A stretch of DNA of 64,000 bases from the human T2T-CHM13v2.0 reference genome, Homo sapiens. Below the pieces are notes generated by a model. That model did no database searches and was not told the DNA's origin. It worked only from the letters and a program-made list of their open reading frames with translations. The translations under genes and the position numbers were made by a program. The stretch lies in NCBI RefSeq assembly GCF_009914755.1, contig NC_060930.1. One strand, given 5' to 3'. Of the stretch, positions 1 through 11,000 are shown piece after piece (position 1 is the stretch's first letter; each line of letters opens with the position of its first letter).

Positions 1-494
1 CGAATCTGCAAGTGGATATTTGGACTTTTTTGAGGCCTTCGTTGGAAATGGGATTTCATCATATAAAAGTTGACAGAAGAATTCTCAGAAACTTCTTTTT
101 TGAAGTGTGCATTCAACTCACAGAGTTGCACCTACCTTTCGGTAGAGCAGTTTTGAAATTCTCTTTGTGTAGAATTTCCAAGTGGATATTTAGAGCGGAT
201 TGCGGCCTATGGTGTAAAAAGCAATATCTTCATAGAAAAACTAGACAGAATGATTCTCAGAAACCACCTTATGATTTGAGCATTCAACTCACAGAGTTTA
301 AACTTTCTTTTGATAGAGCAGTTTTGAAACACTCTTTTTGTAGAATCTGCAAGTGAATATTTGGACTTTTTTGAGGCCTTCATTGGAAACGGGATTTCTT
401 CATATAAAACTCGAGAGAAGAATTCTCAGAAACTTCTTTGCGATGTGTGCATTCAACTAACAGAGTTCTACCTTCCCTTCGATAGAGCAGTTTT
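1..494 (+). repeat. Alpha satellite, divergent ~170-bp monomers
   Basis: Alphoid motifs (cattcaactcacagagtt, gatagagcagttttgaaac, agaattctcagaaact) recur at ~170-bp spacing. Decayed CENP-B-box positions at ~37 and ~378. Ends at the left TSD of the L1/transduction insertion. Confidence 0.97.
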
Positions 495-541
495 TTTTTT
501 TTTTTTTTTAGAGAGGTACAAATAGAAAGATAAATCCTTCC

Positions 542-547
542 TTTATT
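542..547 (-). promoter_or_regulatory. Polyadenylation signal AATAAA used by the read-through transcript
   Basis: tttatt on plus is AATAAA on minus, ~32 nt upstream of the poly(A) starting at 509. Confidence 0.75.
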
Positions 548-6096: not shown

Positions 6097-7113
6097 TTAC
6101 ATTTTGGCATGATTTTGCAGCGGCTGATACCGGTTGTTGCTTTCCATGTTTAGCGCTTCCTTCAGGAGCTCTTTTAGGGCAGGCCTGGTGGTGACAAAAT
6201 CTCTCAGCATTTGCTTGTCTGTAAAGTATTTTATTTCTCCTTCACTTATGAAGCTTAGTTTGGCTGGATATGAAATTCTGGGTTGAAAATTCTTTTCTTT
6301 AAGAATGTTGAATGTTGGCCCCCACTCTCTTCTGGCTTGTAGGGTTTCTGCCGAGAGATCCGCTGTTAGTCTGATGGGCTTCCCTTTGAGGGTAACCAGA
6401 CCTTTCTCTCTGGCTGCCCTTAACATTTTTTCCTTCATTTCAACTTTGGTGAATCTGACAATTATGTGTCTTGGAGTTGCTCTTCTGGAGGAGTATCTTT
6501 GTGGCGTTCTCTGTATTTCCTGAATCTGAACGTTGGCCTGCCTTGGTAGATTGGGGAAGTTCTCCTTGATAATATCCTGCAGAGTGTTTTCCAACTTGGT
6601 TCCATTCTCCCCATCACTTTCAGGTACACCAATCAAACGTAGATTTGGTCTTTTCACATAGTCCCATATTTCTTGGAGGCTTTGCTCATTTCTTTTTATT
6701 CTTTTTTCTCTAAACTTCCCTTCTCGCTTCATTTCATTCATTTCATCTTCCACTGCTGATATCCTTTCTTCCAGTTGATCGCATTGTCTCCTGAGGCTTC
6801 TGCATTCATCACATAGTTCTCGAGCCTTGGTTTTCAGCTCCATCAGCTCCTTTAAGCACTTCTCTGTATTGGTTATTCTAGTTATACATTCTTCTAAATT
6901 TTTTTCAAAGTTTTCAACTTCTTTGCCTTTGGTTTGAATGTCCTCCCGTAGCTCAGAGTAATTTCATCATCTGAAGCCTTCTTCTCTCAGCTTGTCAAAG
7001 TCATTCTCCATCCAGCTTTGTTCCGTTGCTGGTGAGGAACTGCATTCCTTTGGAGGAGGAGAGACGCTCTGCGTTTTAGAGTTTCCAGTTTTTCTGTTCT
7101 GTTTTTTCCCCAT
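6097..7113 (-). pseudogene. L1 ORF1p of element #1, premature stops
   Basis: ATG GGG AAA AAA CAG at 7113 and a 1017-nt frame ending LQNHAKM. Tandem TGA TGA at codons 49-50 (6969-6964). Confidence 0.95.
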
Positions 7114-8018
7114 CTTTGTGGTTTTATCTACTTTTGGTCTTTGATGATGGTGATGTACAGATGGGTTTTCGGTGTGGATGTCCTTTCTGTTTGTTAGTTT
7201 TCCTTCTAACAGACAGGACCCTCAGCTGCAGGTCTGTTGGAGTACCCTGCCGTGTGAGGTGTCAGTGTGCCCCTGCTGGTGGGTGCCTCCCAGGTAGGCT
7301 GCTCGGGGGTCAGTGGTCAGGGACCCACTTGAGGAGGCAGTCTGCTGGTTCTCAGATCTCCAGCTGCGTGCTGGGAGAACCACTGCTCTCTTCAAAGCTG
7401 TCAGACAGGGACATTTAAGTCTGCAGAGTTTACTGCTGTCTTTTTGTTTGTCTGTGCCCTGCCCCCAGAGCTGGGGCCTACAGTGGCAGGCAGGTCTCCT
7501 TGAGCTGTGGTGGGCTACACCCAGTTGGAGCTTCCCGGCTGCTTTGTTTACCTAAGCAAGCCTGGGTAATGGCGGGCGCCCCTCCCCCAGCCTCGCTGCC
7601 GCCTTGCAGTTTGATCTCAGACTGCTGTGCTAGCAATCAGCGAGACTCTGTGGGCGTAGGACCCTCTGAGCCAGGTGTGGGATATAGTCTCGTGGTGCGC
7701 CGTTTTTTAAGCCGGTCTGAAAAGCGCAATATTCGGGTGCAAGTGACCCGATATTCCAGGTGCGTCCGTCACCCCTTTCTTTGACTCGGAAAGGGAACTC
7801 CCTGACCCCTTGCGCTTCCCAGGTGAGGCAATGCCTCATCCTGCTTTGGCTCGCACACGGTGCGTGCAACCACTGACCTGTGCCCACTGTCTGGCACTCC
7901 CTAGTGAGATGAACCCGGTACCTCAGATGGAAATGCAGAAATCACCCGTCTTCTGCGTCGCTCATGCTGGGAGCTGTAGACCGGAGCTGTTCCTATTCGG
8001 CCATCTTGGCTCCTCCCC
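7114..8018 (-). promoter_or_regulatory. L1 5'UTR of element #1 (sense promoter with YY1 site, antisense promoter)
   Basis: GC/CpG-rich ~905 bp. YY1 motif CAAGATGGCCG at ~7998-8008. Confidence 0.88.
7569..7784 (+). CDS. L1 ORF0 (71 aa, antisense in 5'UTR), open frame
   Basis: ATG at 7569 gives MAGAPPPASLPPCSLISDCCASNQRDSVGVGPSEPGVGYSLVVRRFLSRSEKRNIRVQVTRYSRCVRHPFL*. Donor-like CAG|GTGTGG (~7675) and CAG|GTGCGT (~7760) are retained. Expression is not shown. Confidence 0.8.
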   Translation: MAGAPPPASLPPCSLISDCCASNQRDSVGVGPSEPGVGYSLVVRRFLSRSEKRNIRVQVTRYSRCVRHPFL

Positions 8019-11000
8019 GAGCAGTTTTGAAATACTCTTTTTGTAGAATTCTCAAGCGGATATTTTGTTCGGTTCAAGGCCTATGTTAGAAAAGGAAAAT
8101 CTTCATTTTAAAAATTGACAGAATCATTCTCAGAAATTACTTTGTGATGTGTGCATTCAGCTTACGGAGTTTAACCTTTCTTTTCATAGAGCAGTTTTGA
8201 AACAACCTTTTTGTGGAATTTGCAATTGTATATTTTCAGCGCCTTGAGGCCTTCAGTGGAAAAGCAAATATCTTCACAAAAAACTAGACGGAAGCATTGT
8301 CAGAAACTACTGTGTGATGTGGGCATTCAGCTTACAGAATTTAATTTTCTTTTGATACAGTAGTTTGGACACACTTTTTTGGGAATTTGCTAGTGTATAT
8401 TTAGAGCTTTTTGAGACCTACGGTAGAAAAGGAAATATCTTCACAAAAAAATGTACAGAAGCATTGTCAGAAACTAATTTGTGATATTTGCATTCAACTC
8501 ACAGAGTTGAGCATTCCTCTTGATAGGGCTGTTTTGAAACCCTCTTTCTGTAGAAGCTGCAAGTGAATATTTTGATCCTCTTTGTGGCCTTCGTTTGAAA
8601 GGTGATTTCTTCATATAAAACTATATAGAAGAATTCTCAGAAACTTCTTTGTGATGTGTGCTTTCAACTCACAGAGTTGAACCTTCCTTTGGATAGAGCA
8701 CTTTTGAGGCTCTCTTTTTGTAGAATTTCCAAGTGGATATTTAGTGGCGTTTGAGGCCCATGGTAGAAAAGGAAATATATTCAAGGAAAAACTAGACAGA
8801 ATGATACTCAGAAAGTACTTTGCGATGTGTGCTTTCAACTCACAGAGTTTAACCTTTCTTTTGATAGAACAGTTTTGAAACACTCTTTTTGTAGAATCTG
8901 CAAGTGAATATTTGTACTTTTTTGAGACCTTCTTTGGAAACGGGATTTCTATATATAAAACTTGACAGAAGAATTCTCAGAAATTCTTTGTGTTGTGTGC
9001 ATTCTACTCACAGAGTTGAACATTCCTTTCGACAGAGCAGTTTTTAAAGACTCTTTTTGTAGAATTTCCAAGGGGATATTACAGCGGTTCGAGGCCTATT
9101 GTAGAAAAGGAAATATCTTTATAGAAAAACTAGACAGAATCATTCTCAGAAACTAATTTGTGATGTGTGCATACAGCTTAGAGAGTTTAACTTTTCTTTT
9201 GATGGAGTAGTTTTGAAACAATCATTTGGTGGTGTTAGCAAGAGTATATTTGGAGCGTTTGGACGCCTACGGTAGAAACGTAAATATCTTCACATAAGAA
9301 CTAGACAGAAGTATTGTGAGAAACAATTTTGTGATATTTGCATTCAACTCACAGAGTTGAACATTCCTCTTGATAGAGCAGTTTTGACACGCTCTCTTTG
9401 TAGAATCTGCAAGTGCGTATTTGGACCTCTTTGTGGCCTTCCTTTGAAACGTGATTTCTTCATATAAAACTAGACAGAAGAATTCTCAGAAATTACTTTG
9501 TTATGTGTGCTTTCAATTCACAGAGTTGAACCTTTCTTTGGATAGTGCAGTTTTGAGACTCTCTTTTTGTAGTATTTCCAAGTGGATCTTTAGTGCCATT
9601 TAAGACATATGGTTGAAAAGGCAATAGCTTCATAGAAAAACAAGACAGAATGATTCTCAGAAACTACGTTGTGATGTGTGCGTTCAACTCACAGAGTTAA
9701 ACGTTTCTTTTGATAGAGCAGTTTTGAAACACTCTTTTTGTAGATTATGCCAGTGAATATGTTGCCTTTTTTGAGGCCTTCTTTGGAAACGGGATTTCTT
9801 CATATAAAACTTGACAGAAGAATTCTCAGAAACTTCTTTGTGATGTGTGCATTCAACTCACAGAGATTAACCTTCCTTTCGATAGAGCAGTTTTGAAATA
9901 TACTTTTTGTAGAATTTCCAAGTGGATACTTAGAGTGGTTCGAGTCCAATGGTAGAAAAGGAAATATCTTCATAGAAAAAATTGACAGAATCCTTCTCAG
10001 AAACTAATTTGTGATGTGTGCATTCAGCTTACAGAGCTTAAACTTTCTTTTGATAGAGGAGTTTTGAAACACTCTTTTTGTGGAATTTGCAAGTGTATAT
10101 ATTGAGCACTTTGAGGCCTACAGTTGAAAAGGAAATATCTTCACATTCAAACTAGACAGAAGCATTGTCAGAAACTACTTTGAGATAGTTGCATTCAACT
10201 CACAGAGTTGAACGTTCCTCTTGATAGAGCAGTTTTTAAACACTCTTTTTGTAGAATCTGCAAGTGGATATTTTGACCTCGTTGTGGCCTTCATTTGAAA
10301 GGTAATTTCTTCATATAAAGCTAGACAGAAGAATTCTCAGAAACTTCTTTGTGATGTGTGCTTTCAACTCACAGTGTTTAACCTTCCTTTGAATAGAGCA
10401 GTTTTGAGACTCTCTTTTTGTAGGATTTCATAGTGAATATTTAGAGTGCTTGGAGGCCCATGGTAGAAGAGGAAATATCTTCATAGAAACACTAGACAGA
10501 ATTATTCTCAGAAAGTACTTTGTGATGTGTGCTTTCAACTCACAGAGTTGAAACTTCCTTTCGACATAGAAGTTTTGAAACTCTCTTTTTGCAGAATTTC
10601 CTGGAGGATAATTAGTGCCGTTTGAGGCCTTTGGTAGAAAAGGAAATATCTTCACAGAAAAACTAGACAGAATGATTCCCAGAAACTACTTTGTTCTGCA
10701 TTAAACTCACAGAGTTTAACCTTTTTTTTGATAGAGAAGTTTTGAAACACTCTTTTTGTAGAATCTGCAGTGAATATTTGGACTTTTTTGAGGCCTTCGT
10801 TGGAAATGGGATTTCTTCGTATAAAACTTGACAGAAGAATTCTCAGAAACGTCTTTGTGATGTGTGCATTCAACTCACAGAGTTGAACCTACCTTTCCAT
10901 AGAGCAGTTTTGAAACTCTCTTTTTGTAGAATTTCCAAGTGGATATTTGGCCCCGTTTGAGGCCTATGGTAGAAAAGGCAATATCTTCATAGGAAAACGG

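What the first reader, a model, noticed from the sequence alone, without database searches (positions are those of the whole stretch)
485..8028. Full-length L1 carried ~1.5 kb of non-satellite DNA into alpha satellite (7.5-kb single insertion)
Seen: one 10-bp TSD (gagcagtttt, 485-494 and 8019-8028, cut site TTTT/GA) encloses the L1, its A10 tail, 1487 bp of unique DNA, an AATAAA (542-547, minus strand) and a second poly(A). Removing the insert restores an intact monomer. Established: this is the structure of an L1 3' transduction. Inference: the tag identifies the source L1 locus, whose downstream TSD should begin A(n)GAAGTGAGGAAAAC, and it is a unique anchor within satellite.
Basis: partly seen in the sequence, partly recalled or inferred. 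Interest (0 to 1): 0.75.

Follow-up and report, generated by a model that had tools for sequence, protein, structure and literature searches.

The report
L1 transduction whose donor has vanished
A jumping gene (LINE-1) sits in chromosome 6 centromeric satellite together with a 1.5-kb copy of chromosome 1 DNA, and the parent LINE-1 that likely carried it is missing from chromosome 1 in this genome, a known kind of event with one odd hairpin-rich patch at the spot where the parent would have been.

Summary
Observation confirmed. A 7.5-kb insert (full-length, broken L1 with mixed L1PA3/L1PA2-type sites + A10 + 1,487-bp tag + poly(A)) lies between two 10-bp repeats. Removing it restores monomer register. 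The tag has exactly one other full copy in CHM13, chr1:81,227,643-81,229,129 (+), with 36 substitutions and no gaps. Homology stops at the A10 and at the poly(A), 32 nt past AATAAA, so this is an RNA-mediated copy, not a segmental duplication. New here: chr1 has no L1 upstream of the tag (8 kb checked) and no sibling copies were found. Best reading: a 3' transduction roughly 8-15 Myr old from a donor L1 that never fixed (0.6). Unexplained: the 64 nt just upstream of the chr1 junction are a patchwork of inverted copies of the tag start and of themselves (40 of 64 nt covered; 0 of 66,168 background positions and 0 of 18 L1 target sites reach this; post hoc statistic). That fits a donor deleted with a snap-back repair scar (0.25) or a reverse-transcriptase jump at a hairpin (0.07). 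Ape and macaque orthologues would decide. New member of a known kind; modest interest.

The parts
485..494 (.). Target-site duplication, copy at the 3' (poly(A)) end of the insert; nick site TTTT/GA on the + strand
   Evidence: Identical to 8019-8028; register restored on removal
495..509 (-). Terminal poly(A) of the transduced RNA (15 nt beyond the TSD)
   Evidence: Sequence; not templated on chr1, which continues with other sequence after one A
510..1996 (-). Transduced tag, copy of chr1:81,227,643-81,229,129 (+)
   Evidence: 36 substitutions in 1,487 bp, no gaps; only full second copy
542..547 (-). AATAAA, likely the poly(A) signal used, 32 nt before the tail; two other AATAAA lie 100 and 443 nt before the end
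1997..2006 (-). Internal A10, likely the genomic tail of the donor L1
2007..8018 (-). Full-length L1 (6,022 bp with tail), short 5' UTR type, transitional L1PA3/L1PA2 by diagnostic sites; ORF1 (7113-6097) has stops at codons 49-50, ORF2 (6033-2211) is frameshifted near 5,000 and 4,440
8019..8028 (.). Target-site duplication, copy at the L1 5' end
1..484 (+). Host: diverged alpha satellite (A- and B-type monomers, 170/340-bp period), continuing from 8029; closest arrays elsewhere are at most 90% identical (chr6:61.08-61.41 Mb, chr3:90.6-90.8 Mb)

Best explanation
This is one LINE-1 insertion in chromosome 6 alpha satellite that carries 1,487 bp of chromosome 1 DNA, likely copied by read-through from a donor L1 at chr1:81,227,642 that is absent from this genome and probably never fixed in our lineage. 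Steps: (1, inferred) an L1 sat at the chr1 site, nicked at TTCT/AG, on the + strand. (2, inferred from the anatomy) Transcription ignored the L1's own signal, ran 1.49 kb on, and was polyadenylated 32 nt past AATAAA. (3, shown by structure) Target-primed reverse transcription copied the whole 7.5-kb RNA into a TTTT/GA nick in a satellite monomer, leaving a 10-bp duplication. (4, inferred) The chr6 copy persisted and decayed, while the filled chr1 allele was lost by drift or selection, leaving the empty allele. Age roughly 8-15 Myr (inferred from 2.4% divergence and recalled ape divergences).
For: One full second copy only, 98% identical. Homology ends to the base at both A-runs. No L1 match at E<1e-5 in the 8.1 kb upstream on chr1; the only L1 nearby is an old 68-71% identical fragment about 3.3 kb beyond the tag end, opposite strand. 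The junction reads as an endonuclease-type site; that pattern class occurs at 0.4% (strict) to 1.6% (loose) of positions in the 17.5-kb chr1 locus. L1 and tag have matching ages: tag 29 non-CpG differences over two branches, about 1.0% each; L1 1.3% private non-CpG changes as an upper bound. The satellite flanks have no close paralogue (best 85% and 90%). Precedent for donors missing from the reference: a polymorphic donor in PMC6425141 (passages); missing source L1s for old 5' chimeras, with ancestral loss offered as one model, in PMC13174262 (passages).
Against: The donor is not seen. TTCT/AG is a weak variant of the TTTT/AA consensus (recalled). This reading does not explain the inverted-copy patchwork that begins at the junction: 40 of 64 nt covered against a background mean of 2.1 and 0 of 66,168 positions. 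It is also absent from 18 reconstructed L1 target sites (max 15, mean 2.2; two of the 18 TSD calls are doubtful), so a liking of the endonuclease for such hairpins finds no support here. An earlier version of the statistic was matched by 1 of 5,574 background windows, so such patches do occur elsewhere.
Confidence: 0.6

Rival explanations
1. Same 3' transduction, but the donor L1 was later deleted: a break at its tail/TSD boundary was repaired by serial fold-back (snap-back) synthesis from the tag-side end, which left the 64-nt patch as filler.
For: Read on the bottom strand from the junction, 47 of the first 63 nt parse as reverse-complement copies (6-11 nt) of the tag start and of the patch itself. 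Coverage peaks within 4 nt of the junction. It includes a perfect 13-bp inverted repeat; 2 such in 86 kb of background. Folding z = -3.9 as DNA, 0 of 200 shuffles. The patch matches no repeat family at E<=10. Reverse-complement templated inserts are a described, minor class of polymerase theta scars (PMC5068794, passages).
Against: The statistic was designed after seeing the patch. A deletion ending exactly at the tail boundary has a low prior; Alu deletions are described as usually imprecise (PMC5402677, passages). No L1 remnant upstream. The only L1 match in the patch is one 10-mer, at chance level. 16 of the 63 nt are untemplated. The only difference between the chr1 and chr6 copies near the start (tag position 29) lies outside the templated stretch, so the patch cannot be dated from human sequence.
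Confidence: 0.25
2. No donor L1 ever stood on chr1: reverse transcriptase copied a polyadenylated chr1 RNA, stalled at the hairpin and jumped to the poly(A) end of an L1 RNA, giving an L1-first chimera.
For: The junction lies at the foot of a predicted structure (RNA fold -43 kcal/mol, z = -3.8). One A is shared at the joint. The tag is on the same strand as a latrophilin-family gene whose last exons lie 600 kb downstream; that this is ADGRL2 and that a long isoform spans the site is recalled and untested. Template switching is a described route to L1 chimeras (PMC13174262, passages).
Against: In the passages read, the catalogued chimeras have the non-L1 part 5' of the L1, the reverse of this order. 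The endonuclease-type motif at the joint would be chance (0.4-1.6%). No evidence of an RNA ending here was tested.
Confidence: 0.07
3. The donor was fixed and then excised precisely by recombination between its two TSDs.
For: Gives a clean empty site as seen.
Against: Called extremely rare for Alu (PMC5402677, passage); does not explain the patch.
Confidence: 0.03
4. DNA-level duplication or nested separate insertions.
For: Pericentromeric chr6 carries old segmental duplications (10.1101/2021.07.12.452052, passage).
Against: Untemplated poly(A) behind a signal, one TSD pair around everything, homology ending at both A-runs, no flank paralogue above 90%.
Confidence: 0.02

Closest known systems
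L1 3' transductions catalogued in T2T-CHM13 (Hoyt et al., 10.1101/2021.07.12.451456; 183 highest-confidence L1 3' events; passages read)
   Same: L1 + tail + unique flank + second poly(A) inside one TSD pair; interchromosomal.
   Different: The progenitor is absent here. Whether this event is listed in their tables (S13) could not be seen: preprint supplements are closed and the journal version was not held.
Transduction families with a donor absent from the reference (PMC6425141; passages)
   Same: The tag maps to a site that is empty in the reference.
   Different: Those are L1-Ta elements polymorphic today. This L1 is of the older GAG type, with 2.4% tag divergence, so the donor is unlikely to segregate in humans now (inference).
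Old L1 chimeras without a source element (Law and Burns, PMC13174262; abstract, outline and passages)
   Same: Full-length L1PA element with host sequence and no L1 at the source locus; ancestral loss versus RNA recombination left open.
   Different: There the host sequence is 5' of the L1 and usually spliced; here it is 3', unspliced and ungapped.
L1 dating of alpha-satellite layers (PMC2729386; 10.1101/2021.07.12.452052; passages)
   Same: PA2/PA3-age L1s inside diverged, non-active alpha satellite flanking the centromere.
   Different: This insertion adds a second, independent clock: a single-copy tag with a euchromatic counterpart.
Polymerase theta snap-back templated insertions (PMC5068794; passages)
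   Same: Short reverse-complement copies of the flank at a junction.
   Different: Shown there in mutagenised worms with known pre-break sequence; here the prior state is unknown, so the match is resemblance only.

Membership tests
L1 3' transduction | One TSD pair encloses L1 and extra sequence | tested here: met
   485-494 / 8019-8028, register restored
L1 3' transduction | Endonuclease-type target site | tested here: met
   TTTT/GA at the rejoined site
L1 3' transduction | Extra sequence lies 3' of the L1 tail and ends in an untemplated poly(A) behind a signal | tested here: met
   A10, 1,487 bp, AATAAA 32 nt before the tail; chr1 continues otherwise
L1 3' transduction | Extra sequence maps to another locus with homology limited to the tag | tested here: met
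   chr1:81,227,643-81,229,129
L1 3' transduction | Source locus carries the progenitor L1, or its empty site | tested here: inconclusive
   No L1 in CHM13; junction is a weak endonuclease-type site, but true pre-insertion state needs other genomes
L1HS (Ta / pre-Ta) | ACA or ACG trinucleotide and Ta-type G in the 3' UTR (definitions recalled) | tested here: not met
   GAG and A here; young comparison elements show the ACA/ACG states
L1PA3-short / L1PA2 | 5' UTR lacking the 129-bp ZNF93-binding segment (10.1101/429613, passages) | tested here: met
   First 2.5 kb aligns end to end with 29 of 29 young L1s, alignment lengths 2,498-2,504
L1PA3-short / L1PA2 | Subfamily call against curated consensus sequences | not testable with these tools
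   No Dfam/RepeatMasker here. Proxy: at one 3' UTR site it has the state missing from 19 of 20 young L1s (1 unreadable) but present in 4,937 exact genomic copies; at a second site it has the young state, where 6 of 7 readable elements of that group (12 examined) have the other. It is 96.5-96.9% identical to young L1s (5' part) and about 95% to the three long alignments in that group (3' part).
Segmental duplication | Homology extends into flanks | tested here: not met
Polymerase theta / SD-MMEJ repair scar (chr1 patch) | Insert made of short templated copies of the flank | tested here: met
   47 of 63 nt parse as inverted copies
Polymerase theta / SD-MMEJ repair scar (chr1 patch) | Insert absent from the pre-break allele | not testable with these tools
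   No ape or macaque genome available

The most novel reading that the evidence does not exclude
The chr6 copy is the only record of a full-length L1 that was cut out of chr1 exactly at its 3' junction and replaced by a 64-nt serial snap-back repair scar: a transduction that exposes a removed donor and shows that apparently empty L1 sites can be deletion scars.
Probability: 0.25. Interest if true: 0.55.

Novelty: new member of a known kind. Interest (0 to 1): 0.33.

Why it matters
As it stands it is one more L1 3' transduction, useful as a dated single-copy marker in the q-arm satellite flank of centromere 6: tag versus chr1 source gives a direct comparison of substitution rates in pericentromeric and arm DNA once an ape outgroup is added. 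It also records an L1 locus that was active in the ape ancestor and is now gone. If the chr1 patch proves to be a repair scar, it would be a base-level example of whole-L1 removal by end-joining, and old transductions with missing donors would become a way to count how often donors were lost by drift versus deleted.

Tried and rejected
Sibling insertions: a 24-nt tag-start pattern with up to 2 mismatches gave 3 hits, the two known copies plus one chr3 hit with both mismatches at the end, equal to the 1 control hit; rejected as chance without further study. The 15 short hits to tag positions 586-750 (71-88% identity) look like an old repeat fragment inside the tag, not siblings. A filled copy of the donor site elsewhere: the 1.5 kb upstream flank has no second copy, only an old repeat at its far end. 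A paralogous empty site in the chr6 duplication: none above 90%. Hairpin as part of a repeat family: no hit at E<=10. Endonuclease preference for hairpins: not seen in 18 reconstructed sites from 32 loci examined. Close L1 relative of this element: none above 97% among 40 scored of 5,128 candidates, so the search is far from exhaustive. Polarising the 36 substitutions: only CpG decay is informative and is about even between the copies. Literature: searches showed no listing that describes this locus (listings only for most papers); Szak 2003 and Xing 2006 (recalled as relevant precedents) and the journal version of Hoyt 2022 were not held. Earlier scan findings could not be consulted.
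Full report
Observation. The window (chr6:61,194,001-61,258,000 of T2T-CHM13 by the hub's note) is diverged alpha satellite with three L1 insertions. On the minus strand the first reads: TSD (8019-8028), full-length L1 (8018-2007), A10 (2006-1997), 1,487 bp of non-satellite DNA (1996-510), poly(A) (509-495), TSD (494-485). The TSD decamer occurs 156 times in the window as part of the monomer, so the match alone means little. The rejoined site, however, falls in register: 73-79% identity at offsets 169, 170 and 340 against 23-40% at the others tested. 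The target reads TTTT/GA. AATAAA ends 32 nt before the tail.

Source of the tag. A search of the whole genome gave 17 matches of 17 candidates: the tag itself, one full copy at chr1:81,227,643-81,229,129 (+), and 15 short hits to one old-repeat-like stretch. The two copies differ at 36 of 1,487 positions (23 transitions, 7 at CpG), with no gaps; 2.4%, Poisson interval 1.7-3.4%. Homology ends at both A-runs, with one A shared at each. The satellite flanks have no paralogue above 85% and 90% and the chr1 upstream flank is single-copy. So the copy went through a polyadenylated RNA. A tag-start pattern found no siblings (3 hits including the two copies, 1 control hit).

The donor is missing. The 8.1 kb upstream of the chr1 copy hold no L1 match at E<1e-5. 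The junction reads TTCT/AG on the bottom strand, a weak endonuclease-type site (consensus recalled); patterns of that class cover 0.4-1.6% of positions locally. A latrophilin-family gene ends 600 kb downstream on the same strand; the name ADGRL2 and a long isoform spanning the site are recalled, not tested.

The L1. It is 6,022 bp with tail and aligns without a long gap to the first 2.5 kb of 29 of 29 young L1s at 96.5-96.9%, so it lacks the 129-bp segment lost within L1PA3 (10.1101/429613, passages). It has the GAG trinucleotide, not ACA/ACG (meaning of these states recalled). At one 3' UTR site it differs from 19 of 20 young elements (1 unreadable) and shares a state with 4,937 exact genomic copies, against 4,693 for the other state. 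At a second site it has the young state, unlike 6 of 7 readable elements of that group. I read this as transitional L1PA3/L1PA2; no curated consensus was available. The 29 comparison elements were the best hits and lean young. ORF1 has two adjacent stops and ORF2 two frameshifts. Private non-CpG change in the L1 (1.3%, upper bound) matches the tag's roughly 1.0% per branch, as expected if both arrived together. Against recalled human-ape divergences this gives about 8-15 Myr, in line with PA2/PA3 L1s in satellite layers near centromeres (PMC2729386, 10.1101/2021.07.12.452052; passages).

An unexpected feature at the chr1 junction. The 64 nt upstream of the tag hold a perfect 13-bp inverted repeat, a 9-bp fold-back, and inverted copies of tag positions 3-11 and 16-25. 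The stretch folds at z = -3.9 (DNA) and -3.8 (RNA), 0 of 200 shuffles each. Coverage by 7-mers whose reverse complement lies to their right is 40 of 64, peaking at the junction; none of 66,168 background positions (103 kb, both strands, every third base) reaches it, mean 2.1. A first version of the statistic was reached by 1 of 5,574 windows. Eighteen real L1 target sites rebuilt from 32 fetched loci score at most 15. The statistic was made after seeing the patch, and background positions overlap, so these counts overstate rarity. Read as a bottom-strand extension from the junction, 47 of 63 nt parse as serial fold-back copies, the form described for a minor class of polymerase theta scars (PMC5068794, passages). 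Human sequence alone cannot tell whether the patch is older or younger than the transduction.

Mechanism and odds. Shown: a single target-primed insertion of L1 + tag + poly(A); the tag's origin; absence of an L1 at the origin in CHM13. Inferred: that a donor L1 stood there and was read through. I put 3' transduction at about 0.9 overall: donor never fixed 0.6, donor deleted with a scar 0.25, precise excision 0.03. A reverse-transcriptase jump from a chr1 RNA to an L1 RNA at the hairpin gets 0.07. These are judgements from priors and the counts above, not computed posteriors.

Comparison and novelty. L1 3' transductions are well known; 183 high-confidence cases were counted in CHM13 (10.1101/2021.07.12.451456, passages). 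Donors absent from the reference are known for young elements (PMC6425141, passages), and sources missing altogether for old 5' chimeras (PMC13174262, passages). TSD lengths of 10-17 bp are reported for full-length L1s in cell assays (PMC2912911, passage). Ten full-text searches showed no description of this locus, but the supplement most likely to list it (Hoyt Table S13) could not be seen. Verdict: real, new member of a known kind, interest 0.33, raised slightly by a cheap and decisive test of the scar reading in ape assemblies.

Noticed in passing
window 45,852-51,906: Second full-length L1, minus strand, 95.1% identical to the first, with a long patterned tail and a 15-bp TSD (about 45,837-45,851 and 51,910-51,924, one mismatch) that overlaps a CENP-B-box-like motif; 3 extra bases at the 5' junction. 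More diverged from young L1s (2.1% private non-CpG changes) although it has the young state at both 3' UTR sites read.
   Followed up: partly
window 23,438-25,081: 5'-truncated L1 with an inverted 5' part (24,727-25,081 on +, 23,438-24,725 on -), the twin-priming form, TSD about 12-13 bp.
   Followed up: partly
window, whole: All three L1s have their 3' ends on the minus strand, i.e. nicked on the T-rich satellite strand.
   Followed up: no
L018:9300-10000 and window 8019-9200: The satellite's closest relatives off chr6 among the listed hits lie at chr3:90.6-90.8 Mb (up to 87%), and many hits are spaced about 850 bp apart, suggesting a decayed 5-monomer repeat shared by chr3 and chr6.
   Followed up: no
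window 57,870-58,149: Local 145-bp period in the satellite, i.e. monomers with a short deletion.
   Followed up: no
one of L003-L015 (background set): Another patch of nested short inverted repeats (14-bp arm, 6-nt spacer) resembling a templated insertion; shows such patches occur away from L1 junctions.
   Followed up: no
L017:5051-9193 (chr1:81.232-81.236 Mb): Old L1 fragments, 68-71% identical to the chr6 L1, opposite strand, downstream of the tag source; not the donor.
   Followed up: yes
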